A stretch of DNA of 64,000 nucleotides from Stegostoma tigrinum. Its lineage: Eukaryota. Position numbers and translations under genes: made by a program. Numbering within the stretch: the first letter of the stretch is position 1; each line of letters starts with the position of its first letter. The stretch spans positions 6,138,001-6,202,000 of the forward strand of contig NC_081396.1 of assembly GCF_030684315.1 (NCBI RefSeq). The letters are read 5' to 3'. Positions 424 through 52,971 of the stretch are shown here, in pieces. The notes below the pieces were generated by a model. That model was not told the origin of the DNA, made no database searches, and saw only the letters and a list, made by a program, of their open reading frames with translations.

Positions 424-897
424 TCAGTCCGGGGTGTGCTCGGTTGAGATCGCTGTCAGTCCGCTGTGTTGCGGCTGGTGGGATAACCGAGTGCACCGCT
501 TCCCGCACGCCGCGCAGCCGAACGGCCTCTCCCCGGTGTGGACCCGCCGGTGCCTCTGCAGGCTGCTGGACTGGGTGAACCACTTCCCACACTCGGGGCA
601 GGTGAACGGCCTCTCAGCGACGTGGACCTGCTGGTGTTTCAGCCGGCGGGACGACTGGGCGAAGCCCTTCCCGCAAACCGAGCAGGTGAACAGCCTCTTG
701 CCGGCGTGGCTGCGTCGGTGGGTCTCCAGCCGAGACGGGTATGTGAAACCTTTCCCGCAATCCTCGCACTTCCACTGCCTCTCCCCGGGTCGGCGGTACA
801 TCGTTACTTCTGTGTGAGACTTTCCGCTCCCTGAAACGCAACGGCGCTCAGCTCGTAACTCCGGCAGCTCCTGACTCCGAAATCCGGCCCTTCTCAT
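424..897 (-). CDS. C2H2 zinc-finger protein (3 complete fingers + 1 degenerate), no KRAB; possibly a truncated paralog
   Basis: CxxC-x12-HxxxH repeats with TGERP-like linkers. Splice acceptor TTTTACTTTCACAG just upstream (AG at 902-901) and an in-frame ATG at 897. Confidence 0.75.
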   Translation of the reverse strand: MRRAGFRSQELPELRAERRCVSGSGKSHTEVTMYRRPGERQWKCEDCGKGFTYPSRLETHRRSHAGKRLFTCSVCGKGFAQSSRRLKHQQVHVAERPFTCPECGKWFTQSSSLQRHRRVHTGERPFGCAACGKRCTRLSHQPQHSGLTAISTEHTPD

Positions 898-934
898 GCC
901 CTGTGAAAGTAAAACAGAGAAAGGTGGTGAAGAG

Positions 935-1128
935 AGAATAACCAGGTGTGGAGCTGGATGAACGCAGCAGACCAAGCAGCCTCAGAGGGGCAGGAAAGGT
1001 GACGTTTCGGGTCTGGACCCTTCTTCGGAAATTCAGCAGTTCCTACTGTCTCTGAGCCGGTTTTTAACCCCACCGCGAAGCCCCTTCTATCTCGGATTCT
1101 CCAGCATTGGCAATTCCTACTATCTCTG
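935..1128. mobile_element. Short fold-back PLE terminal fragment
   Basis: GTGTGGAGCTGGATGAACGCAGC...GACGTTTCGGGTCTGGACCCTTC (inverted PLE 3' end) followed by GGATTCTCCAGCA...TTCCTACTATCTCTGA (PLE tail). Confidence 0.7.
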
Positions 1129-4881: not shown

Positions 4882-6269
4882 GCTTGTAACTGATGTCCTC
4901 CATCTCAGGCAACCAGCTTGTAACTGATGTCCATTTCAAGCCCACCGACTCCCACAGCTACCTAGAATACACCACCTCCCACCCACCCTCCTGCAAAAAT
5001 TCCATCCCCCATTCCCAATTCCTCCGCCTACGCCACATCTGCTCCTACGATGAGGCATTCCACTCCCGCACATCCCAGATGTCCAAGTTCTTCAAGGACC
5101 GCAACTTTCCCCCCACAGTGGTCGAGAACGCCCTTGACCGCATCTCCCGCATTTCCCGCAACACATCCCTCACACCCCGCGCCTGCCACAACCGCTCAAA
5201 GAGGATCCCCCTCATTCTCACACACCACCCCACCAACCTCTGGATACAACGCATCATCCTCCGACACTTCCGCCCTCTACAATCCGACCCCACCACCCAA
5301 GACATTTTTCCATCCCTACCCCTGTCTGCTTTCCGGAGAGACCACTCTCCCCATGATTCCCTTGTTCGCTCCACACTGCCCTCCAACCCCACCACACCCG
5401 GCACCTTCCCCTGCAACCGCAGGAAATGCTACACTTGCCCCCACACCTCCTCCCTCACCCCATCCCAGGACCCAAGATGACTTTCCACATTAAGCAGAGG
5501 TTCACCTGCACATCTGCCAATGTGGTATACTGCATCCACTGTACCCGGTGTGGCTTCCTCTACATTGGGGAAACCAAGCGGAGGCTTGGGGACCGCTTTG
5601 CAGAACACCTCCGCTCGGTTTGCAATAAACAACTGCACCTCCCAGTTGCCAACCATTTGCACTCCCCCTCCCATTCTTTAGATGACATGTCCATCATGGG
5701 CCTCCTGCAGTGCCACAACGATGCCACCCGAAGGTTGCAGGAACAGCAACTCATATTCCGCTTGGAAACCCCGCAGCCCAAAGGTATCAATGTGGACTTC
5801 ACCAGCTTCAAAATCTCCCCTTCCCCCACCGCATCCCAAAACCAGCCCAGTTCGTCCCCTTCCCCCACTGCACCACACAACCAGCCCAGCTCTTCCCCTC
5901 CACCCACTGCATCCCAAAACCAGTCCAACCTGTCTCTGCCTCCCTAACCTGTTCTTCCTCTCACCCATCCCTTCCTCCCACCCCAAGCCGCACCTCCATC
6001 TCCTACCTACTAACCTCATCCCACCACCTTGACCTGTCCGTCTTCCCTGGACTGACCTATCCCCTCCCTACATCCCCACCTCTACTCTCCTCTCCACCTA
6101 TCTTCTTTTCTCTCCATCTTCGGTCCGCCTCCCCCCCTCTCCCTATTTATTCCAGAACCCTCACCCCATCCCCCTCTCTGATGAGGGGTCTAGGCCCGAA
6201 ACGTCAGCTTTTGTGCTCCTGAGATGCTGCTGGGCCTGCTGTGTTCATCCAGCCTCACATTTTGTTATC
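4882..6269 (+). mobile_element. 5'-truncated Penelope-like retroelement (Neptune-like): RT C-terminal region, Cys-rich linker, GIY-YIG endonuclease
   Basis: ORF 4893-5480 (TDVHFKPTDSHSYL...SQFLRLRHIC...PCNRRKCYTCPH) is frameshifted into 5426-5947 (NVVYCIHCTRCGFLYIGETKRRLGDRFAEH). The 15-bp TSD ACAGACATTCACCAT lies at 4867-4881 and 6270-6284. Confidence 0.92.
6178..6205 (+). ncRNA. Minimal type I hammerhead ribozyme motif in the PLE 3' end
   Basis: CTGATGA-GGGGTCTAGGCCC-GAAA-C-GTC: conserved core, stem II, palindromic ACGT stem III and a GUC cleavage triplet. Confidence 0.8.
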
Positions 6270-9169: not shown

Positions 9170-9333
9170 GATAACAAAGTGTGAGGCTGGATGAGCACAG
9201 CAGGCCAAGCAGCATCTCAGGAGCACAAAAGCTGACGTTTCGGGATGAAGGGTCTAGGCCCGAAACGTCAGCTTTTGTGCTCCTAAGATGCTGCTTGGCC
9301 TGCTGTGTTCCTCCAGCTCCACACTTTATTATC
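9170..9333. mobile_element. Miniature fold-back PLE derivative (about 75-bp arms, 14-nt loop)
   Basis: GATAACAAAGTGTG...GACGTTTCGGG / ATGAAGGGTCTAGG / CCCGAAACGTC...CACACTTTATTATC. Confidence 0.9.
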
Positions 9334-9489
9334 TTCTGTCTATTGTGAACTTAACCGTCGTCAAACACCTTCCTATTTTTGTCCCAAAAGTTTAAAAAGA
9401 ATTATCTTCGCAAAATTGGGCTTAAAAAGTGGCCTACATCGTATTTTAAGGTATAATTTACTGCAGAATGAAAAATACGTTGCATGGCA

Positions 9490-9920: not shown

Positions 9921-9945
9921 CAAATGGGACAATGGTTTGGGAATT

Positions 9946-10095
9946 CCAAGCTAATAAAGTGTGAAGCTGGATGAACACAACAGGCCCAGCAGCATCTCAG
10001 GTGCACAGAAGCTGACGTTTCGGGCCTAGACCCTTCGTCAGAGCCTCACATTTTATTATCTTGGAATTCTCCAGCATCTGCAGTTCCCATTATCT
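9946..10095. mobile_element. Short fold-back PLE derivative with a minus-strand hammerhead core (10014-10041)
   Basis: Inverted PLE end plus tail; 14-bp TSD ATGGTTTGGGAATT at 9932-9945 and 10096-10109. Confidence 0.88.
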
Positions 10096-10417
10096 ATGGT
10101 TTGGGAATTGATACTTTTTGTGATGTCACAATGGAGGGGCGGGGTGACAACTTGTCTATCAAAACTGCTCCACGCCCTGGGGCCCCCAAGGCCTCAGTGT
10201 TGAGATAGATCCATATCAATGGAGGGGAGAGAGAAAAGCCCTGTTTCCTGCACTCTGCACCACGCCACCTCATGCGTTAAGATCCTTCCCTCTCTGTCCA
10301 TTGACTTGGAGACCTGTCGAGTGGCTGGAAGACCCACAGCGCCGACTCGGGACACTCAGTAGACAGCCATCATCCGCAAACCAAGGGGGTCTTTATTGGT
10401 CAGCACGTTAAGTCTAG

Positions 10418-10620
10418 GATAACAAAGTGTGGGGCTGGATGAACACAGCAGGCCAAGCAGCATCTCAGGAGCACAAAAGCTGACGTTTCGGGATGAAGGG
10501 TCTAGGCCCGAAACGTCAGCTTTTGTGCTCCTAAGACGCTGCTTGGCCTGCTGTGTTCATCCAGCCACACACTTTATTATCTTAGATTCTCCAGCATCTG
10601 CAGTTCCCATTATCACTGAT
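10418..10620. mobile_element. Miniature fold-back PLE derivative with 3' tail
   Basis: Same hairpin junction as 9170-9333, plus tail TTAGATTCTCCAGCATCTGCAGTTCCCATTATCACTGAT; TSD CAC(G/A)TTAAGTCTAG at 10404 and 10621. Confidence 0.9.
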
Positions 10621-20600: not shown

Positions 20601-21533
20601 TGTTTGTACTTTTTCTCACTGGATGGGTATGTGAATGGCAAGTGTTTTGTGGCTTATGGGCAAAATGTTGGCCAATGGGCCTAGGTCAGATTGGTGATGT
20701 CAGTTTCTGTGTTGTATGACTCTATGAATCTATCAAATGATGGAACATCTTAGAAGGTTACTTGACCCACTGTGTTCATCTTAGGTTTCTTGAAGAGCTG
20801 GCCAATTGTTTTGAATTTTCCTTCCTTTTTCCCCCAACCCTGTGATATGTGTCCTTTCAAGTCTCTGTCCCATTCCCATTCTTGCCCTTTCACACTCTCG
20901 CCCTCCATAACTCTCCTACCCATTCTATCTCAGCAATCACTCCTCCATTCATTGTCCCAGCAGTCACTCTTGCTTCATTCACTCTTGTCCAATACTGGCC
21001 CCCCTACAAATGACCATCTCTGTCTCCTTCATGCCCCCCCAGTAACTCCTATAAATTAACCTCAGTAATTCATATCAACACTATTACCTTCTGTAAACCC
21101 GAGTGAGTTCAGACTTGAGTAATACAATGGTGGCCACAGAAACAGAACTGGCTGGAAAAGCTCAGCAGGCCTGGCAGGATCCCTGGAAAGAAAGCAAAGT
21201 TGAAACATTTTGGGTACAGTTCTGAAGAAAAGTCACTGGATCCAAAACGTTAACGCTGTGCACTGATTGGAATGAGGGCCAGGTGGTTCCCATTGACTCT
21301 GAGATCTCTGATTGGGACTGTTAACCTGTACCAATAAGGGAACCCTGGCTGACAGATACAGACAGGGGATTCAGAGTCTCCTGTCTGCAGGAACTGACTC
21401 TGGACTTGGCCGCAGCCAGTGTCTTGCGCACAAAAAAAAGACGATAGATATCAGATTCAGGGAGTCTCCTGATTTGAGGGACTGACTCTGAGCTGCTTGG
21501 TCAGAGCCCGTGCACTGTACACATGTAAATAAA

Positions 21534-22088
21534 CATAGAACATTACAGCACAGTACAGGCCCTTCGGCCCTCGATGTTGTGCTGACCTGTCATACCGATC
21601 TCAAGCCCACCTAACCTACACTATTCCATGTACGTCCATATGCTTGTCCAATGACGACTTAAATGTACTTAAAGTTGGCGAATCTATTACCATTGCAGGC
21701 AAAGCGTTCCATTCCCTTACTACTACTCTGAGTAAAGAAACTACCTCTGACATCTGTCCTATATCTTTTACCCCTCAATTTAAAGCTATGCCCCCTCGTG
21801 CTCACCGGCAGCATCCTAGGAAAAAGGCTCTCCCTATCCACCCTATCTAACCCTCTGATTATTTTATGTGTCTCAATTAAGTCACCTCTCAACCATCTTC
21901 TCTCTAATGAAACAGCCTCAAGTCTCTCAGCCTTTCCTCGTAAGACCTTCCCTCCATACCAGGCAACATCCTGGTAAATCTCCTCTGCACCCTTTCCAAA
22001 GCTTCCACATCCTTCTTATAACGCGGTGACCAGAACTGTACGGAATACTCCAAGTGTGGCCGCGCCAGAGTTTTGTACAGCTGCAGCA
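21534..22088 (-). mobile_element. Young CR1 3' fragment
   Basis: [21 protein letters not shown]...RGDLIETHKIIRG; 8-bp TSD TAAATAAA at 21526-21533 and 22089-22096. Confidence 0.92.
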
Positions 22089-22108
22089 TAAATAAAGGGT
22101 GACTTGGT

Positions 22109-23186
22109 ATCAGTGATAATGGGAACTGCAGATGCTGGAGAATCCAAGATAACAAAGTGTGGAGCTGGATGAAAACAGCAGGCCAAGCAGCATCTCAGGA
22201 GCACAAAAGCTGATGTTTCGGGCCTAGACCCTTCATCAGAGAGGGGGATGGGGAGAGGGTTCTGGAATAAATAGGGAGAGAGGGGGAGGCGGACCGAAGA
22301 TGGAGAGAAAACAAGATAGGTAGAGAGGAAAGTATAGGTGGGGAGGTAGGGAGGGGATAGGTCCGTCCAGGGAAGATGGACAGGTCAAGGAGATGGGATG
22401 AGGTTAGTAGGTAGGAAACGGAGGTGCGGCTTGGGGTTGGAGGAAGGGATGGGTGAGAGGAAGAACAGGTTAGGGAAGCAGAGACAGGCTGGGCTGGTTT
22501 TGGGATGCAGTGGGGGGAGGGGATGAGCTGGGCTGGGTTTGTGATGCAGTGGGGGAAGGGGAGATTTTGAAGCTTGTGAAGTCCACATTGATACTGTTGG
22601 GCTGCAGTGTTCCCAAGCGGAATATGAGTTGCTGTTCCTGCAACCTACGGGTGGCATCATTGTGGCACTGCAGGAGGCCCATGATGGACATGTCATCTGA
22701 GGAATGGGAGGGGGAGTTGAAATGGTTCGTGACTGGGAGGTGCAGTTGTTTGTTGCGAACTGAGCAGAGGTGTTCTGCAAAGCGGTCCCCAAGCCTCCGC
22801 TTGGTTTCCCCAATGTAGAGGAAGCCACACTGGGTACAATGGATACAGTATACCACATTGGCAGATATGAAGGTGAACATCTGCTTGACTTGGAAGGTCA
22901 TCTTGGGGCCTGGGATAGGGGTGAGGGAGGAGGTATGGGGGCAAGTGTAGCACTTCCTGCGGTTGCAGGGGAAGGTGCCGGGTGTGGTGGGGTGGAGGGC
23001 AGTGTGGAGCGGACAAGGGAGTCACGGAGAGAGTGGTTCCTCTGGAAGGCAGACAGGGGTGGGGATGGAAAAATGTCTTGGGTGGTGGGGTCGGATTGTA
23101 GATGGCGGAAGTGTCGGAGGATGATGCGTTGTATCCGGAGTTGCTGCTTGGCCTGCTGTGTTCATCCAGCTCCACACTTTGTCATC
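22109..23186 (-). mobile_element. 5'-truncated PLE with a short inverted cap (23140-23186)
   Basis: GIY-YIG ORF 22470-22901; hammerhead core at about 22212-22239 (GUC mutated to AUC); 15-bp TSD AAAGGGTGA(C/T)TTGGT at 22094-22108 and 23187-23201. Confidence 0.92.
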
Positions 23187-24920: not shown

Positions 24921-26157
24921 ATTCTAAGGCTTGGTGCAATGACGCACATAGGCAACAGCATTTTGAACGGCCTCAGGATTCACTTGGTGGTTGAATAACA
25001 TGTAACTCCTTCCCTTACAGCATTACAGCAGCTGATGTGAGAATATAAACCTACCAAGGCAGCAAAAAATACCTGGGGTAATGGACAAGTAGATAAAGTC
25101 AATGGAAGTAACAATGGGACAGTAAACAGCTCAAATACACCCATAAATAGAGGCAGAGGAAGTTAGACAAGAACATAGAGGGATTGTGAGAACTGTGGAG
25201 ATTGTGTTTGGGCAGTTAACTGTAGAGATCTCAACGGGAGGCACTGGCTTAGTGATATTATGGCTGAACCAGAGACCTAGGTAATGTTCTGGGGACCTGG
25301 TTTTGAATCCTGCCATGGCAGATGGTAGAATTTGAATTCAACAAATGGCCGGAATTTAATGATGACCATGAACCATTGTCGATTGTTGGAAAAACCCATG
25401 TGGTTCACTAATGTCCTTTAGGGAAGAAAACTGCCATCCTTACCTGGTCTGGCCTACATGTGACTCCAGACCCACAGCAATGTGGTTGACTCTTAACTGA
25501 CCTCTGGGCAATTAGGGACAGGCGAAATATGCTGGCCCGGCCAGCGACACTGTCATCCCGTGAGTGAATTTTAAGAAAAGTGACAAAAGGTGAGTGTCTC
25601 AGCAGCAGATGGACTGAGAGTACGAGTTGGACGATGTCATTGAGGTGGAAGTGGACAATCTGAGTGATGACAGGGATGTGTGGTTCATTTCAGAATGAAG
25701 TGTCACGCCGCAGTCATGACATGTTTGGTTCAGCCTCAGACAGTTTGCCAGGGAGTCTGTGGCGAGACTGCGGAGTTGGTTTTGTTGCCGTTATTTAATG
25801 GGAGGAAGCCTCTGCTCCTTCGGGAACTGGATCTCTGGCAAGCCAGGACAAGTGTGTGTGAGACCCGGAGGCAACTTGGAGGTGATGGTATTCAGATCAA
25901 CTCGCAATCCCCTGCTCCCTCTCAGCGATACAGTTGGAAAATTCTGCCAAAGGTCTGCCCGGGTTGCTGGTGTGTAAAATGCCTGTCCTCCAGCCTCTGC
26001 CTTTCCTTTTCCCTCTCCATCTACACATAGATGCCAGAGTGTCACGTTCATGCTCTCACTCTCTTGTTTTTTTTTTCTTGTTGTTGTTGTTTGACGATCG
26101 ATTTCCCAGGGTGTTAGAAAGGGAGGATTTACAGAGCAAACACCATACCATGATCTG

Positions 26158-27450
26158 ATGGAGGCGTCCAGTTTGTCACAAATGGAATGTCATCAGATTT
26201 TGAACATGGAAGGGAAAAGTACCACTCACAGCGGAGAGAAACCGTGCACGTGTACCGCGTGTGGTCAGGGCTTCAGCCAATCTTCAGACCTCACAAAGCA
26301 CAAGTGCAGTCACTCCGGGGAGAAACTGGGGAAATGTGGGGATTGTGGGGAGGAGTTCAGTTCCCCGGCTGAGCTGGAAGCTCATCAGCACAGTCACACC
26401 GGCAACAGGCCGTTCACCTGCTCGGTGTGCGGGAAGGGCTTCACCCAGTCGTCTAACCTGCTGCAACACCAAGTTGTTCACACCGCGGACAGGCCCTTCA
26501 AATGCCCAGACTGCGGAAAATGCTACAAAACCTCCGGGGACCTGATGTCCCATCAACTAGCTCACACGAACGAGAGACCTTTCAAGTGCCCAGACTGTGG
26601 CAAGTGCTACAAAACCTCCCGGGACCTGGTGTCCCATCAGAACGCCCACACGAACATGAGGCCTTTCAAATGCCCCGACTGCGGAAAATGCTACAAAACC
26701 TCCGGGGATCTCATGTCCCATCAGCGTTCTCACTCCGAGGAGAGACCCTTCAAGTGCACGTGCTGTGGCAAGTGCTACAAGACGGCCAGGGACCTGATGG
26801 CCCACCAGCGTGTTCACTCCGAGGAGAAGCCCTTCAGTTGCTCCCACTGCGGGATCGGCTTCCGGCGGTCATCTGACCTCATGGAGCACCAGCAGGTTCA
26901 TACGGGGGAGAGACCGTTCTCCTGCTCCGAGTGCGGGAGGGGCTTCACTCGCTCGTCCAACCTGCTGAGACACCAGCAGGTTCACACCGCGGAGAGATCC
27001 TTCAAATGCCAAGACTGTGGCAAGTGCTACACCAGCTCCTGGGGCCTGACCTGTCATCAGCGCGTCCACACCGGAGAGAGATCTTTCAAGTGCCCGGACT
27101 GCGGGAAATGCTTCAGGAATCCTGTGGAGCTGAAGTCCCACCAGCATGTTCACTCTGAGGAGAGGCCTTTCAAATGCTCAGACTGCGGGAATCACTACAC
27201 AAGTTGCTGGGGGCTGTTCTACCACCAACGCGTTCACATTGAGGAGAGACCTTTCAAGTGCCCAGACTGTGGGAAGAGCTACCGCAATTCCGTGGAGCTT
27301 ATGTCCCATCAGCACGTTCACATGATGAGAGACCTTTCGGGAGCTCTCATCGTGGGGCTGGGTGCGGGCGATCATCTCAACTCTCAGTACCCCAGCGGCT
27401 TCACGCTGGGGAGAGACCATACGCCCGCTCCGTGTGAGAAAAAGACTTAG
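26158..27450 (+). CDS. C2H2 zinc-finger protein, 13 intact fingers, short N-terminus without KRAB/SCAN/BTB
   Basis: 430-aa ORF of tandem CxxC...HxxxH with ERPF linkers; acceptor TTTCCCAG at 26109; the C-terminus is frameshifted out of decayed fingers. Confidence 0.93.
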
Positions 27451-29720: not shown

Positions 29721-31042
29721 CATTCGGACCTGGGACTGCCAATCCCTGTCTTTTTGTTTTGTTGATGGGCATGGCCTTGTGGACTGACATCTCACGGCTA
29801 CTGGTTTAAAAAAAATCCTGAGAGAAGAAAGGTGTTTCATTTTGGAGAGAGTCAACTTGTACATTACTCAGGATCGTCTTGCCAAGCAGCACTGTAATGT
29901 GTTAATAATCCATTCTTAGATTATCATAGAATCCTTACAGTGTGGAAGCAGGCCATGGGGCGTGAGTCCACACCAGCCCTCTGAAGAGGATCCCACCCAG
30001 CCCCAATCCCGCCAGTCCTATCTCTGTAACCCTGCATTTTCCATGGCCAATCCACTCAACCTGCACATAGTATTACAGCATGGCCAAAGACCCTTCAATC
30101 CAACTAGTCCATGCTGACCACATTACCAAACTAAACTGCCATGCATATCCCTCCAAACCTTTCCTATTCATGTCCTTATCTAAATGTCCTTTAGACATTA
30201 TAATTATACCTGCATCCACCACTTCCTTTGGCAGTCTATTCGACACACAAACCATTCTCTGTAAAAAAGTTGTGCCTGTCTTCTTTTAAACCTTCTCTCA
30301 CCTTTGGGAAAAGACCTCGCTATTCACTTATCTATGCCCTTCATGATTTTGTAAACTTCGCTAAGGTCACTCCTCATCCTCCTCTACTCCAGTGGAAAAG
30401 TCTCAGTCTATCTTTATAATTATAAATCCTCAATTCCCAGCAAATCTTTTCGAGCCCTCTTCTGTTTAATAATATCTTCCCTACAACTGGGGTGCCCAGA
30501 ACTGCACCCAATACTCCACCAGAGACCTCACCAACATCCTGAACAACCTCAACACCACATCCCAACCCCTGTAGCTTCAGACAGTGGGAGTATCTGGAGG
30601 AAACCCACGCAGATATGTGCAAACTCCAAAGAGACAGTCGCCCGAGGATGGGAATGGAACCCGGGTCCCTTGCACAGCAGTGCTAACCACTGAGCCACAC
30701 TCAGAATAAAATCAAAAGCTTATGTCAATAGTGAGCAATCTGTTACATCAATGCTCAGAGTCGACTACATTAATAGTCAGGTTCCTGGTTACTTTCTGAC
30801 ATGTTACAGCACACCTCTGGAACAGGAGAAGCTTAAAGTTGCACCACAAACGCTGTATAGACTGCTGTGCCTGGTATTCCCAGTTGGTCCTCCAAGTGAC
30901 TGGTCTCCAGGATGAACATTTCCAGTGCTAGCCAAGCTTGAGACTGCTTGGTTTCCAAAATCAGCATTTTCAGACCAGTGTAATAAAATGTGAGGCTGGA
31001 TGAACACAGCAGGCCAAGCAGCATCTCAGGAGCACAAAAGCT

Positions 31043-31070
31043 GACGTTTCGGGCCTAGACCCTTCATCAG
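31043..31070 (-). ncRNA. Minimal hammerhead ribozyme motif
   Basis: Reverse complement reads CTGATGAAGGGTCTAGGCCCGAAACGTC. Confidence 0.8.
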
Positions 31071-32334
31071 AGAGGGGGATGGGGGGAGGGAACTGGAATA
31101 AATAGGGAGAGAGGGGGAGGCGGACCGAAGATGGAGAGTAAAGAAGATAGGTGGAGAGGGTGTAGGTGGGGAGGTAGGGAGGGGATAGGTCAGTCCAGGG
31201 AAGACGGACAGGTCAAGGAGGTGGGATGAGGTTAGTAGGTAGCTGGGGGTGCGGCTTGGGGTGGGAGGAAGGGATGGGTGAGAGGAAGAACCGGTTAGGG
31301 AGGCAGAGACAGGTTGGACTGGTTTTGGGATGCAGTGGGTGGGGGGGAAGAGCTGGGCTGGTTGTGTGGTGCAGTGGGGGGAGGGGATGAACTGGGCTGG
31401 TTGAGGGATGCAGTGGGGGAAGGGGAGATTTTGAAACTGGTGAAGTCCACATTGATACCATATGGCTGCAGGGTTCCCAGGCGGAATATGAGTTGCTGTT
31501 CCTGCAACCTTCGGGTGGCATCATTGTGGCAGTGCAGGAGGCCCATGATGGACATGTCATCAAGAGAATGGGAGGGGGAGTGGAAATGGTTTGCGACTGG
31601 GAGGTGCAGTTGTTTGTTGCGAACTGAGCGGAGGTGTTCTGCAAAGCGGTCCCCAAGCCTCCGCTTGGTTTCCCCAATGTAGAGAAAGCCGCACTGGGTA
31701 CAGTGGATGCAGTATACCACATTGGCAGATGTGGTACCAAGCGGAGGCTTGGGGACCGCTTTGCAGAACACCTCCGCTCAGTTCGCAACAAACAACTGCA
31801 CCTCCCAGTCGCAAACCATTTCCACTCCCCCTCCCATTCTCTTGATGACATGTCCATCATGGGCCTCCTGCACTGCCACAATGATGCCACCCGAAGGTTG
31901 CAGGAACAGCAACTCATATTCCGCCTGGGAACCCTGCAGCCATATGGTATCAATGTGGACTTCACCAGTTTCAAAATCTCCCCTTCCCCCACTGCATCCC
32001 TCAACCAGCCCAGTTCATCCCCTCCCCCCACTGCACCACACAACCAGCCCAGCTCTTCCCCCCCACCCACTGCATCCCAAAACCAGTCCAACCTGTCTCT
32101 GCCTCCCTAACCGGTTCTTCCTCTCACCCATCCCTTCCTCCCACCCCAAGCCGCACCCCCAGCTACCTACTAACCTCATCCCACCTCCTTGACCTGTCCG
32201 TCTTCCCTGGACTGACCTATCCCCTCCCTACCTCCCCACCTACACCCTCTCCACCTATCTTCTTTACTCTCCATCTTCGGTCCGCCTCCCCCTCTCTCCC
32301 TATTTATTCCAGTTCCCTCCCCCCATCCCCCTCT

Positions 32335-32362
32335 CTGATGAAGGGTCTAGGCCCGAAACGTC
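32335..32362 (+). ncRNA. Minimal hammerhead ribozyme motif
   Basis: CTGATGA-A-GGGT-CTAG-GCCC-GAAA-C-GTC. Confidence 0.8.
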
Positions 32363-32779
32363 AGCTTTTGTGCTCCTGAGATGCTGCTTGGCCTGCTGTG
32401 TTCATCCAGCCTCACATTTTATTATCTTGGAATCTCCAGCATCTGCAGTTCCCATTATCTCTGATACTATTTTCAGACCAGTATGGCCACTAATCAGTAT
32501 CGTATTACACGCTAGTCTGTCCCACAGGGCGAAAGAACCTCTCCACTTCTACCCTGCGTCTCGCCTTAGAATCCTATCTGATTCAATAAGTTCACCTCTC
32601 ATTCTTTCAAACTCCACTAAGTACAGGCCCAATCTACTTGAGCAGCCCTGCTAGAAAGTCTCTCCAATATCAATGCATCCATCCTATGACATGGGGGACC
32701 TGAACAGTTTGCAGATTTCCCTGTTTTTGTAGTCCATTCCATTTGCCTTCCCTGTGACCTGCTGGAGCTCACAACATCG

Positions 32780-35460
32780 AATATTACAGCACAGGAACAG
32801 GCCCTTCACCCCATCATATCTATGCTGACCATGATGCCATTCTAAATTAATCCCAACTGCCTGCACATGGTCCATATCCCTTTATTCCTGCCTGGTCATG
32901 TGTCTGTCTAAATTCCTCTTAAACTTAGTTATCTGCTTCTACCACCTTCCCTGGCAGTGGGTTCCAGGCACTAACTACCCTCTGTAATAAAAAAAAACTC
33001 ACCTCAGGCATCTTCTTCAAACTGCCCCCCCCCCTCACTTTAAACCTATGCCTCCCAGTGTTTGACATCTGCACCCTTATCTGTGCCTCTCATAATTTTA
33101 TGCACTTCCATGAAGTCACCCTTCAGCCCCGGATGTTCGAACAAAAGCAGCTAAAGGTTTTTCAATCTCTACTTATAACCAACACACTCCAATCCAGTCA
33201 ACATCCTGGTAACCCTCTTCTGCACCCTCTCCACATCCTTCCTGTAGAGTGGAACCAGAAATACACACAAGACTCCAAATGTGACCTGACCAAATTCAGT
33301 GCCCCGACCATTGAAAGTAACCATGCTATATGCCTCCTTTATCAACTTAACCATTTGTACTGTCACTTTCAGAGAGCTATGGACTTGGACTCGAAGACGC
33401 CTCTCAATCAATGCTTCTGAGCATCTGGCCATTTGTAGTATACTGTTGTCTTGCATTTGACTTACCAAATGCATCATCTCACATTTGTCTGGATTAAACC
33501 CCATCTGCGATTTCTCCGTCCAACTTTCCAATTGATCTGCAACTTTTGTTTGTCTATCCTTCCTCACTATCCAGAGCTCCCCCAATCTTCGTGCCATCTG
33601 CAAACTTTACTAATCAGACCACTGATATTTTTATCTGAATCATTTATCGGTCGAGGCACTGATCCTGGTGGGCCACCACACCTCCACTCGGAAAAAATAT
33701 CCCTTTCACAACTACCCTCTGTCTTCTATGGGCAAGCCAGTTTTGTATCCAACTTGCCAACTCACCATGGATTTCATGCCATTTGATCTTCTGGAGCAAC
33801 CTATCATGCTTGACCTTGTCAAATGTTTTAGTGAAGCCCATGTCGACAACATCCATTGCCTTACCCTCATCAATCCTCTCCGTCACTTCCTCAAAAAACT
33901 CAAACAGGTAGATGAGAGTAAACCGGTTGATGTGGTGTATATGGATTTCAGCAAGGCGTTCGATAAGGTTCCCCTCAATAGGCTATTGTACAAAATGCGG
34001 AGGAATGGAATTGTGGAAGATATAGCAGTTTGGATCGGAAATTGGCTTGCTGAAAGAAGACAGAGGGTGGTAGTTGATGGGAAATGTTCATCCTGGAGAC
34101 CAGTTACTAGTGGTGTACCGCAAGGGTCGGTGTTGGGTCCACTGCTGTTTGTCATTTTTATAAATGACCTGGATGAGGGCGTAGAAGGATGGGTTAGTTA
34201 ATTTGCAGACGACACTAAGGTCGGTGGAGTTGTGGATAGTGACGAAGGATGCTGGTAGGTTGCAGAGAGACATAGATAAGCTGCAGAGCTGGGCTAAGAG
34301 GTGGCAAATGGAGTTTAATGCAGACAAGTGTGAGGTGATGCACTTTGGTAGGAATAACCGGAAGGCAAAGTACTAGGCTAATGGTAAGATTCTTGGTAGT
34401 GTAGATGAGCAGAGAGATCTCGGTGTCCATGTACACAGATCCTTGAAAGTTGCCACCCAGGTTGACAGGGCTGTTAAGAAGGCATACAGTGTTTTAGCTT
34501 TTATTAATAGAGGGATCAAGTTCCGGAACCAAGAGGTTATGGTGAAGCTGTTCAAAACTCTGGTGCGGCCGCACTTGGAGTATTGCGTACAGTTCTGGTC
34601 ACCGCATTATAAGAAGGATGTGGAAGCTTTGGAAAGGGTGCAGAGGAGATTTACTAGGATGTTGCCTGGTATGGAGGGAAGGTCTTACAAGGAAAGGCTG
34701 AGGGACTTGAGGCTGTTTTCATTAGAGAGAAGAAGGTTGAGAGGTGACTTAATGAAACATATAAAATAATCAGAGGGTTATATAGGGTGGAGAGGGAGAG
34801 CCCTTTTCCTAGGATGGTGACGGCGAGCACGAGGGGGCATAGCTTTAAATTGAGGGGTGAAAGATATAGGACAGATGTCAGAGGTAGTTTGTTTACTCAG
34901 AGAGTAGTAAGGGAATGGAATGCTTTGCCTGCAACGGTAGTAGATTCGCCAACTTTAGGTACATTTAAGTTGTCATTGGACAAGCATATGGACGTACATG
35001 GAATAGTGTAGGTTAGATGGGCTTCAGATCAGTATGACAGGTCGGCACAACATCGAGGGCCAAAGGGCTTGTACTGTGCTGTAATGTTCTATGTTCTGTA
35101 AATCAGTTTGTGAGACAAGACCTCCCCTGCATAAAGCTATGCTGACTGTCCCTAATATGTACATTCTTTTCCAAATGTAAGCAAATTCTGTCGCCAAAAA
35201 TCTTCCCTAATAATTTTCCTACAACTGATGTAATGCTCACCAGCCTATAATTTACTGCTCTTCTTAAACAAAAGAACAAAATTGGCTATTCTGCAGTCTT
35301 CTGGGACCTTGTCTGTGGCTAAAGAGAATATAAAGATCCCTGTCAGGGCCCCAGCAATCTCCCCGCTTGGCTCCTTCAGTATCCCGGGATAGATCCCATC
35401 TGGCCCTGGCGATTTATTTATCTTAATGGTTTTTGAGAATCCTCCTTCTCAATAGTGACA
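32780..35460 (-). mobile_element. Older minus-strand CR1 (32780-33900, resuming 35098-35460), split by a younger CR1
   Basis: Minus-strand translations [21 protein letters not shown] and MGFNPDKCEMMH. Confidence 0.8.
33903..35097 (+). mobile_element. Young 5'-truncated CR1 LINE (RT to 3' tail), a few stops
   Basis: [16 protein letters not shown]...[22 protein letters not shown]...RPHLEYCVQFWSP; tail TTCTATGTTCT. Confidence 0.93.
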
Positions 35461-40620: not shown

Positions 40621-41528
40621 GTGATGGTCCATTGCTCCTCACCAAAGTTTCTGAACCTCCTAGGTGCTGCGTTATTTGGGCAGCCCATGCTAGGCATAAA
40701 GGGGCAAGTTGTTCTCTCAGATGAGACCTCCACTCATTCATTCTACACCCAGTTGCATGACCTATTAAAGTCCCATGCATTGCTTTCAATATTCAGTTGG
40801 CAATCAATGGGAACTGTTACAGCACAGTGGCTCACTGGTTAGCACTGCTGCCTCTCGGCACCAGGGAACCGGTTTCGATTCCACCTTCGGGTGACTGTCC
40901 GTATTGAGTTTGCACGTTTTCCTTGTGACTGAGAGTTTCCTCCAGGTCCTCCGGTTTCTTCCCACAATTCAAAAATGTACAGTGTAGGTGGATTGGCCAT
41001 GCTGCAGTGCTCCTTAGCTTCCAGGGGTGTGTAGGTTAAGAGGAATAGCCATGGGGAATTGCAGGGTTATAGCATGGGGGGATGCTTTTTGAAGGGCTGG
41101 TGTGCACTTGATGGGCTAAAATGGCATGCTTCCACACTGTAGGGATTCTAGAATTTCCATATTCTACTGGCAGAAGCAACTTTTGCAAACTCTCTTTTTG
41201 ACAGGGTATCGAGAAAGAGGATTCACGGATGAAATATTCAAATTGAGCAGCACGCGGCGGTTGTATAAGAGTCACGCCAATTCCCAGGCATCTGAATATC
41301 ACTGGCCTTTGAGGGCGGATCGAAAGAAAAATGTTTGTCATTGTGTCTGCTGGCTTTCAAACTTTGGTGAGACCAGAACAGCGGGAAGGCATCCAAGTGA
41401 AAGTCTTTCAGTGCAATTACCCAGGTCCACAGCCTTCAGTAGCACTGCACCACTCAGGGTGGTATGTGTGACCTGTGTGTATGTGTGTGAAACTTTAGCC
41501 AGAGAGAGCAACAAGAGCACTTTACACC

Positions 41529-42287
41529 ATGGAGAAGCCATGGAAATGTGGGGACTGTGGGAAGGCATTCAGCTATCCATCGCAGTTGGAAAACCATCGC
41601 CGCAGCCACACCGGGGAGAGGCCATTCATCTGCTCTGTGTGCGGCAAGGGCTTCGCGCAGTCCTTCTGCCTCCAGTCGCACCAGCGGGCTCACACTGAGG
41701 AGAGGCCATTCAGCTGCACGTACTGCGGGAAGAGGTTCCGGTGCTCGTCCAACCTCACAGCCCACCGGCGGGTCCACACGGGCGAGAGGCCGTTCACCTG
41801 CTCGGTGTGCGGGAAGGGCTTCACCCAGTCCACCACGCTGCAGACCCACCAGCGGGTCCACACGGGCGAGCGGCCGTTCGCCTGCTCCGAGTGCGGGAAA
41901 GGGTTCACCAACTCGTCACAGCTGCTGAAGCACCAGCGGGTCCACACGGGCGAGCGGCCGTTCACCTGCGCCGCCTGCGGCAAGGGCTTCGCCCAGTCCA
42001 ACAACCTGCTGCGGCACCAGCGGGGCCACGCCGGCGAGCGGCCCTTCTCCTGCCAGGTCTGCGGCAGCGGGTTCACCCACTCGTGGAACCTGCGGGCCCA
42101 CCAGCGCATCCACAGCGGCGAGAGGCCGTTCGCCTGCTCGGTCTGCGGCAAGGACTTCACCCGCTCATCCCACCTGCAGACTCACCGGCGCATCCACACC
42201 GGGGAGAGGCCCTTTGTCTGCTCGGTGTGCGGGAAGGGCTTTACCCAGTCACAGCACCTTCTGTCCCATCAGCGAGTCCACAAGTGA
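41529..42287 (+). CDS. C2H2 zinc-finger protein, 9 fingers, essentially fingers only
   Basis: 252-aa ORF with canonical TGERPF linkers; good Kozak context ACACCATGG; acceptor TTTTTGACAG at 41204. Confidence 0.93.
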
Positions 42288-52586: not shown

Positions 52587-52971
52587 TCACAAACAACAGT
52601 GGGCCTTGTCGTGGGTGCGAGTGACAGCAAAGCCCCGGGTCCTGGCAGGTCCCTTGTGGGCCCGCTGGTGTGTCAGCAGGTAACAGGTCCGGGTGAAGCC
52701 CCTGCCGCACTCGGCACAGGTGAATGGCCTCTCCCCGGTGTGGACCCGCCCGTGGGTGGTCAAGTGAGACGACTGCCGGAAGCCCTTGCCGCAGCGGGAG
52801 CACCGGAACGGCCTCTCGTCGGTGTGGGCCCACTGGTGGAGGATCAGCTCGCCGGGGCTCTTGTAGCTCTTGCCACACTGAGGCTACAGGGTGTGGCTTG
52901 CTGTTGTAGAAACTCCTCTGATGGCCATCAGGTCAGGGAACCTGCTACCCAACCCGGACCCTGGCAAGAAC
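52587..52971 (-). pseudogene. Disrupted zinc-finger terminal exon (2 complete fingers + 1 lacking its first Cys)
   Basis: The frame not shown in the ORF track reads [76 protein letters not shown]. An in-frame TAG precedes it. Acceptor CTCTCACAG at 52972; AATAAA at about 52554-52559. Confidence 0.75.

What the first reader, a model, noticed from the sequence alone, without database searches (positions are those of the whole stretch)
30966..32482. 1.44-kb near-perfect palindrome made by a single PLE insertion, with a ribozyme on each strand
Seen: two apparently identical 689-bp arms, a 66-bp spacer, one tail and a perfect 14-bp TSD. Each arm has the GIY-YIG C-terminal half and a hammerhead pointing outward. 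The arms share private variants (for example QPYGINV, ASLNQP) that are absent from the copies at 4882 and 22109, so both derive from one template or were homogenised. Inference: transcription from either side gives about 690 bp of perfect dsRNA with a potential self-cleavage site near its 3' base, a possible endogenous siRNA source against the family. The DNA could also form a cruciform or act as a rearrangement hotspot within the ZNF cluster. The asymmetric ends and TSD argue against a read fold-back artefact.
Basis: partly seen in the sequence, partly recalled or inferred. Interest (0 to 1): 0.7.

Follow-up and report, generated by a model that had tools for sequence, protein, structure and literature searches.

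The report
Head-to-head Penelope retrotransposon insertion
This 1.4-kb mirror-image stretch is one very young insertion of an abundant Penelope-like jumping gene in that family's published head-to-head shape, one of an estimated several thousand in this genome, likely made when both cut DNA strands copied the same element RNA.

Summary
The anatomy is real: identical 689-bp arms, 66-bp spacer, tail on one arm, exact 14-bp TSD. It is the published 'typical Penelope structure' (PMC3846280, PMC8557442) and common here. An exact 60-mer carrying the supposedly private QPYG variant occurs 18,790 times. Of the first 100 matches, 58 lie in 39 head-to-head units; 38 of 39 have exactly one tail, 19 have arms of 689 bp or more, and one has perfect 1,139-bp arms. 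Two unrelated copies match the arm with no differences, so perfect arms show youth, not homogenisation. Neither arm contains the other, which favours two cDNAs primed from the two target strands and then joined (inferred). In a read-through hairpin the ribozyme is predicted to be fully paired, so a self-cleaving dsRNA is unlikely. siRNA from Penelope inverted repeats is already reported in Drosophila. No RNA data were found; the centre junction was not seen in reads. Side result: 709 mini-palindromes centre on the predicted ribozyme cut, against 23-54 at three control sites. The scan noted this structure and this side result before, on other DNA. Verdict: ordinary.

The parts
30966..30979 (.). 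Left copy of the 14-bp target-site duplication
   Evidence: Exact match to 32469-32482, not extendable; 34 of 39 sister units have a TSD of 11-17 bp
30980..30980 (.). One extra G between the TSD and the inverted arm
   Evidence: Does not mirror 32425
30981..31733 (-). Inverted, 5'-truncated PLE copy without tail: arm 30981-31669 plus nearly all of the spacer; reference positions 1980-2732 of natural copy L014
   Evidence: 99.6% identical to L014; minus-strand frame reads TSANVVYCIHCTQCGFLYIG...; Pfam GIY-YIG E 2e-4
31670..31735 (-). 66-bp spacer: further 5' sequence of the inverted copy, holding the VVY-CxxC-YIG motif
   Evidence: Aligns in continuity with the left arm to the copies at 5509 and 22869
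31734..31736 (+). Central junction: 2-nt filler GT, with the following A possibly shared; likely templated by a short hairpin at the end of the inverted copy
   Evidence: Junction display; short centre hairpin in the fold; mechanism inferred
31736..32424 (+). Direct, 5'-truncated PLE copy (arm): GIY-YIG C-terminal part, stop codon, 3' region; starts at reference position 2044
   Evidence: 99.7% identical to L014; identical to L054 and L074 over 689 nt
32333..32364 (+). Hammerhead-like motif: CUGAUGA, bulged A, 4-bp helix II, GAAA, palindromic ACGU, predicted cut after C32362; helix I only 2 bp
   Evidence: Sequence and folds; motif type described in PMC4209133; no Rfam match; activity not tested
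31041..31072 (-). Mirror copy of the hammerhead-like motif; predicted cut between 31043 and 31042
   Evidence: Mirror coordinates
32425..32468 (+). One-sided tail; family 3' ends cluster at reference about 2735 and about 2771, 36 nt apart
   Evidence: 3'-end histogram; tail equals the interval between two RT start sites in PMC11167929
32469..32482 (.). Right copy of the 14-bp target-site duplication
   Evidence: run contigs cover 32447 to 32839-32843 with no differences

Best explanation
The palindrome is one very young insertion of an endonuclease-bearing Penelope-like retrotransposon, made of two 5'-truncated copies set head to head between a 14-bp TSD, and it likely arose when each of the two cut target strands primed its own DNA copy of the same element RNA. 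Shown: the anatomy, the family, the commonness of the shape, and that neither arm contains the other. Inferred: the element's protein made a 14-nt staggered cut. One strand primed at the outer start site (giving the tail) and ran to reference position 2044. The other primed about 36-39 nt further in (no tail) and ran 64 nt further, to 1980. The two cDNA ends were then joined by microhomology-type repair with a 2-3-nt templated filler. The arms are identical because the copy is too young to have mutated. The hammerheads are passengers from the element's terminal repeat. The insertion is most likely inert; if read through from a neighbouring gene it would form a hairpin like thousands of sisters.
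For: Shape: 39 head-to-head units among the first 100 matches of a 60-mer; 38 of 39 have one tail, 34 of 39 a TSD of 11-17 bp. Across all loci then held plus the window, 53 of 55 young units have one tail, against 2 tail-to-tail neighbours. Not nested: the tail-less arm reaches further 5' in 21 of 42 long units, the tailed arm in 17, and 4 are equal. Junctions: 21 of 39 show microhomology, 4 are blunt, 12 have fillers of up to 30 nt, 2 have longer inserts; the offsets between arm starts run from 0 to 2,434 nt. One template: median arm-to-arm divergence 0.54% against 1.32% between units; 31 variants are shared only within a unit. 12 of 62 units have both arms starting within 5 nt of each other. 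In vitro, the anole PLE protein cleaves and extends both strands, starts at two RNA sites that bound the tail, and is predicted to be a dimer (PMC11167929). Family: natural copy L014 has a 784-aa stop-to-stop frame with RVT_1 and GIY-YIG hits, both below Pfam's cut-offs.
Against: Twin priming is inferred from end positions only. PMC11167929 saw no difference in start site between the two strands, which does not by itself predict exactly one tail per unit. At this locus there is no variant unique to both arms, so 'same RNA molecule' cannot be shown here. A few units have arms no closer than random pairs (L060: 56 of 67 other arms closer). The centre junction was not among the listed run contigs. 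The outer junctions are covered with only 21-23 nt on the element side, under the tool's 31-nt rule, by runs from one study that may be the assembly's source. The survey of long units comes from the first 12 Mb of one contig and was selected by an exact 60-mer, so it favours young copies.
Confidence: 0.7

Rival explanations
1. Same element, different route: one cDNA self-primes (snaps back) into a hairpin or palindromic intermediate, and the endonuclease trims one end to give the one-sided tail before or during integration.
For: PMC3846280 reads junction palindromes as self-priming on an antisense template, and PMC8557442 attributes the tail to endonuclease resolution. This junction has a short hairpin with a templated filler. 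Trimming of either end would also give the 21:17 split, and identical arms follow naturally.
Against: Offsets between arm starts are often hundreds of bases, up to 2,434, with only 0-6 nt of microhomology in nearly all units, which is hard for a snap-back. PMC11167929 ties the tail to two RT start sites and shows extension of both target strands. A plain fold-back without trimming is excluded here because neither arm contains the other.
Confidence: 0.2
2. A selected host device: the palindrome is kept perfect by gene conversion and serves as a self-cleaving dsRNA or siRNA source against the family.
For: A read-through RNA folds into a 689-bp stem. A 13-finger ZNF frame ends about 3.5 kb upstream on the + strand (26095-27447). 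Penelope inverted repeats coincide with siRNAs in Drosophila (PMC3681739, PMC3136932).
Against: The arm equals two unrelated copies and differs from the column majority at one site, so no conversion is needed. Older units show diverged arms, up to 2.6%. Thousands of like units exist. The sense ribozyme is fully paired in the hairpin. The Drosophila papers say these siRNAs do not silence Penelope efficiently.
Confidence: 0.05
3. Assembly or read fold-back artefact.
For: The centre junction was not among the listed pieces of run contigs. The outer junction contigs come from two samples of one study that may be the assembly's source.
Against: Exact TSD, asymmetric ends at the family's two known end positions, and a spacer present once. 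Contigs of X1, X2 and X4 run from the left flank 21-23 nt into the inverted arm; contigs of X1, X2 and X3 run from 22 nt of tail into the right flank; all without differences. Sister units with diverged arms cannot be fold-back reads.
Confidence: 0.03
4. Two independent insertions that landed back to back.
For: The family is very abundant, and two unrelated copies can be identical.
Against: One TSD encloses both copies. 38 of 39 units have exactly one tail. Head-to-head units outnumber tail-to-tail neighbours 55 to 2.
Confidence: 0.02

Closest known systems
'Typical Penelope structure' of endonuclease-positive PLEs (Pen2a_Av and the Pen2 derivative in PMC3846280, passages read; fig. 2 legend and text of PMC8557442, passages read)
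   Same: Inverted 5'-truncated copy adjacent at the 5' end, head-to-head, 30-40-bp tail on one end only, TSD around the whole unit.
   Different: Here both copies are truncated inside the endonuclease domain, so the unit is almost all palindrome; TSD is 14 bp rather than 8-10 bp.
Poseidon PAc of the green anole (PMC11167929, parts 1-2 of 4 read)
   Same: Two preferred ends bounding a tail, a hammerhead near the ends, GIY-YIG after RT.
   Different: This family has a C-x4-C-xx-C linker that PMC8557442 assigns to Neptune and Nematis, not Penelope/Poseidon. The paper gives no model for the inverted copy in the parts read.
Minimal and small-helix-III hammerheads of metazoan PLEs (PMC4209133, parts 1-2 of 4 read)
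   Same: Conserved core, bulged base before helix II, palindromic helix III, short helix I. The paper already notes pairs on opposite strands about 100-700 bp apart.
   Different: The pair here is about 1.3 kb apart; helix II is 4 bp; activity untested.
Penelope copies with long inverted repeats giving siRNA in Drosophila (PMC3681739, PMC3136932; passages read)
   Same: A long inverted repeat inside one insertion that could give dsRNA.
   Different: No RNA evidence at this locus; vertebrate host.
LINE-1 twin priming
   Same: Both target strands prime cDNA; the 5' part is inverted and joined with microhomology.
   Different: In L1 the two cDNAs copy different, adjacent parts of the RNA; here both copy the same 689 nt, giving a palindrome.

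Membership tests
Endonuclease-positive Penelope-like element | Single ORF with RT followed by C-terminal GIY-YIG endonuclease | tested here: met
   Natural copy L014 (99.6-99.7% identical to the arms): RVT_1 E 3e-5 at aa 269-410 and GIY-YIG E 0.003 at aa 644-683, both below Pfam cut-offs. The insertion itself holds only the endonuclease end.
Endonuclease-positive Penelope-like element | [quoted passage not shown] | tested here: met
   VVYCIHCTQCGFLYIG with downstream histidines, read directly from the translation; histidine assignment by eye, no alignment
Endonuclease-positive Penelope-like element | Direct or inverted terminal repeats, 30-40-bp one-sided tail, TSD | tested here: met
Endonuclease-positive Penelope-like element | RT phylogeny with PLEs | not tested
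   No tree was built
Neptune/Nematis clades of PLEs | CX2-5CxxC linker between RT and endonuclease (PMC8557442) | tested here: met
   CNRRKCYTC in L014 and sister frames; does not separate Neptune from Nematis
Neptune/Nematis clades of PLEs | Clade placement by RT tree | not tested
   No reference sequences were held
Type I hammerhead ribozyme (metazoan PLE minimal type) | Core CUGANGA, GAA, NUH with helix II | tested here: met
   CUGAUGA-A-GGGU/GCCC-GAAA-C-GUC at 32335-32362
Type I hammerhead ribozyme (metazoan PLE minimal type) | Stable helices I and III, or a dimer partner | tested here: inconclusive
   Helix I is 2 bp by inspection; helix III is palindromic ACGU (dimer type); the predicted monomer fold pairs the core with itself; no Rfam match. 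Only one sense copy per strand at this locus.
Type I hammerhead ribozyme (metazoan PLE minimal type) | Self-cleavage | not testable with these tools
   Indirect family-level hint only: 709 symmetric junctions at the predicted cut against 38, 23 and 54 at controls
Endogenous hairpin siRNA locus | Read-through transcript and 21-22-nt RNAs from both arms | not testable with these tools
   No RNA holder listed
Fold-back or MITE-type DNA transposon | Symmetric terminal inverted repeats, multiplied as one fixed unit | tested here: not met
   Ends are asymmetric and every long unit has its own centre

The most novel reading that the evidence does not exclude
Taken as a population, these palindromes record the unsolved PLE insertion step: a protein dimer primes both target strands on one RNA molecule, one at each of the two start sites, and re-copies the same RNA stretch twice. 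About 700 stubs centred on the hammerhead cut site would show that the ribozyme cleaves the template in the germ line. This locus would be a clean, unmutated example.
Probability: 0.45. Interest if true: 0.6.

Novelty: new member of a known kind. Interest (0 to 1): 0.24.

Why it matters
As a single locus it matters little: the shape, the paired hammerheads and even siRNA from such inverted repeats are in print. Its value is as one of thousands of near-perfect long palindromes in a vertebrate genome, which together can test how PLEs make inverted copies and whether their weak hammerheads cut in vivo. The papers read here leave both questions open.

Tried and rejected
Rfam at gathering score: 0 matches. 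A DNA search of the genome with the 3' end returned nothing because common words are skipped; uninformative. Run search: no RNA holder listed; no evidence either way on expression. The centre junction was not among the listed contig pieces; 241,778 and 136,685 pieces were not shown, so this is no evidence either way. X9 (another organism) holds the family but gave no depth over the right flank, so no empty site was seen; X5 likewise over the left flank. Twenty planned tiles on C30 and C40 did not exist, so the unselected sample is 400 kb from four contigs. It gave 3 young head-to-head units (one with 723-nt arms) and 11 solo pieces. The bacterial promoter scan was irrelevant. A recalled paper id on Drosophila small RNAs was not held. 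A search for shark PLE papers returned nothing relevant in its listing. Rejected: private variants, homogenisation, simple fold-back, MITE, two independent insertions. Not counted as head-to-head although they show short or interrupted inversions: L041, L044, L055, L064.

Full report
Observation. The window holds an exact inverted repeat: arms 30981-31669 and 31736-32424, 689 nt, 100% complementary, 66 nt apart. A 14-bp word flanks the unit at 30966-30979 and 32469-32482 and cannot be extended. The right arm continues for 44 nt that the left arm lacks. The spacer is not foreign: on the minus strand it continues the left arm and reads TSANVVYCIHCTQCGFLYIG, the GIY-YIG motif (Pfam E 2e-4, just under the cut-off). 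So the unit is two 5'-truncated copies of one element set head to head. The left copy reaches 64 nt further 5', and the right copy about 39 nt further 3' (reference 1980-2732 and 2044-2771). Neither contains the other.

Family. The genome has 3.2 Gb in 835 contigs. I fetched the surroundings of the first 100 of 18,790 exact matches of a 60-mer from the arm. One natural copy, L014, has a 784-aa stop-to-stop frame with RT and GIY-YIG hits, both below Pfam's cut-offs. [quoted passage not shown] No tree was built. The arms are 99.6-99.7% identical to L014.

The variants are not private. The 60-mer holds the QPYG codons and has 9,399 + 9,391 matches. In 400 kb of tiles not chosen by it, QPYGINV was 4 of 14 and ASLNQP 5 of 8 such peptides. 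Of 95 copies covering the arm end to end (the window's four included), two unrelated ones, L054 and L074, are identical to it and four more differ by one base. The copies at 4882 and 22109 are simply older (40 and 51 differences). The perfect arms therefore show recent insertion; homogenisation is not needed.

The shape is common. 58 of the 100 matches lie in 39 head-to-head units. Of these, 38 have exactly one tail, 34 have a TSD of 11-17 bp, 19 have arms of 689 nt or more, and 3 have perfect arms over 500 nt, the longest 1,139 nt in L007. Scaling 19 per 100 matches gives roughly 3,600 units of this size. This is a rough estimate from the first 12 Mb of one contig, where matches are about 1.4 times as dense as the genome average. 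The 400 kb of unselected tiles held 3 young units, one with 723-nt arms. The window itself holds four more head-to-head units of the family. The other 42 matches were solo or partial-tandem copies; four of them show short or interrupted inversions that I did not count.

It is in print. PMC3846280 (passages) calls an inverted pLTR, a 31-bp one-sided tail and a TSD the 'typical Penelope structure' and notes that head-to-head is the usual arrangement. PMC8557442 (passages) says the same for all endonuclease-bearing clades. PMC4209133 (parts 1-2 of 4) reports minimal hammerheads in PLE repeats, including pairs on opposite strands, with no monomer activity and low dimer activity. PMC11167929 (parts 1-2 of 4) shows that the anole protein cleaves and extends both strands and starts at two RNA sites bounding the tail; its hammerhead needs protein, and no RNA reads ended at the cut. 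Its supplementary figures, which I did not read, map genomic ends and may bear on the points below. PMC3681739 and PMC3136932 (passages) link Penelope long inverted repeats to siRNAs that silence poorly. Three passages of the 2026 retrozyme preprint added nothing.

Mechanism. Family 3' ends fall in two clusters near reference 2735 and 2771. In 42 long one-tail units the tail-less arm reaches further 5' in 21, the tailed arm in 17, and 4 are equal. A plain fold-back of a tail-primed cDNA would always nest the tail-less arm, so it fails for half, this locus included. Junctions show microhomology (21 of 39), blunt joins (4), fillers of up to 30 nt (12) or longer inserts (2), with offsets up to 2.4 kb. 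Here the filler is GT, matching sequence just inside the inverted copy. Arms of one unit are closer to each other than to other copies in 35 of 36 units with overlaps of 250 nt or more (medians 0.54% and 1.32%), and 31 variants are shared only by the two arms of one unit, against 158 unique to one arm. This locus has no such variant, and L060 goes against the trend. I infer that both target strands prime cDNA on the same RNA, one at each start site, and that the two ends are joined by repair. The rival is a self-primed hairpin trimmed by the endonuclease, as the older papers suggest; it is not excluded. A search for Penelope with 'twin priming' listed two papers, neither on PLE mechanism by title and abstract start (listing only).

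The ribozymes. Each arm has CUGAUGA, a bulged A, a 4-bp helix II, GAAA and a palindromic ACGU, with the predicted cut after 32362 and its mirror at 31043/31042; helix I is 2 bp. Rfam has no match, and the motif folds no better than shuffles. In a read-through RNA the antisense arm is made first, and the folded molecule pairs every base of the sense ribozyme region, so self-cleavage of the hairpin is unlikely. Whether the locus is transcribed is unknown: no RNA holder was listed. A 13-finger ZNF frame ends about 3.5 kb upstream, so read-through is possible.

Reads. Contigs of runs X1, X2 and X4 cover 30600 to 31001-31003, and contigs of X1, X2 and X3 cover 32447 to 32839-32843, all without differences. 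They reach only 21-23 nt into the element, under the tool's 31-nt rule for bridging, and come from two samples of one study that may be the assembly's source. The centre junction was not among the listed pieces, which shows nothing. An artefact is unlikely given the TSD, the family-typical asymmetric ends and sister units with diverged arms.

Side result. Short units whose two arms both start at the first base after the predicted cut number 709 genome-wide by exact 24-mer, against 38, 23 and 54 for symmetric joints at three other four-base palindromes 5, 27 and 16 nt away. Of 20 fetched, 18 have one tail and 13 a TSD of 11 bp or more, in 10 shared-variant classes, so they look independently made. 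Two controls contain CpG, a fourth nearby palindrome was not tested, and pausing at RNA structure is not excluded. A search on in vivo cleavage gave a listing that I did not read beyond titles and abstract starts. Earlier notes of this scan report the same structure in at least 30 genomes and the same cut-site stubs in this one; one disputes the cleavage reading. I had reached both readings before those look-ups; the Neptune lead came from them.

Verdict. Real, well formed and ordinary: a new member of a known kind, interest 0.24. The open questions it touches belong to the family as a whole, not to this locus.

Noticed in passing
G000 genome-wide; examples L028:5789-5954, L008:5947-6090, L006:2431-2593, L119-L138: 709 mini-palindromes have both arms starting at the base after the predicted hammerhead cut, against 23-54 at three control palindromes; possible DNA record of in vivo cleavage. 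Noted before by this scan.
   Followed up: partly
window 9170-9335, 9943-10098, 10418-10618, 22111-23186: Four more head-to-head units of the same family. 9170 and 10418 share the same centre and left flank, suggesting a local duplication; the 9170 copy lacks the tail.
   Followed up: partly
loci L001-L118, reference positions 2639-2648: 5' ends of short copies cluster just before the hammerhead core, a possible RNA start site.
   Followed up: partly
L007:694-3013; L009, L010, L018: Perfect 1,139-bp arms in L007; in L009, L010 and L018 both long arms start within 1 nt of each other, as if both ran off the same RNA end.
   Followed up: partly
L032:769-3247; L033:2788-3077: Tandem arrays with a period of about 50 bp, derived from the element's 3' end downstream of the hammerhead; in L032 a young copy sits inside the array.
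   Followed up: no
L022, L036:3741-4168, L067, L024: Units with 89-152 nt of other sequence between the arms, or an inverted internal piece; possible template capture.
   Followed up: no
window 26095-27447 (+), 41499-42284 (+), 427-981 (-), 52590-52883 (-): C2H2 zinc-finger frames with 13, 9, 3 and 2 fingers; the palindrome lies about 3.5 kb downstream of the first.
   Followed up: partly
window 21532-22091 and 34537-35095: Two inverted copies of another repeat, 93-95% alike and about 12.5 kb apart, bracket the ZNF exon and the palindrome; likely LINE fragments, not identified.
   Followed up: no
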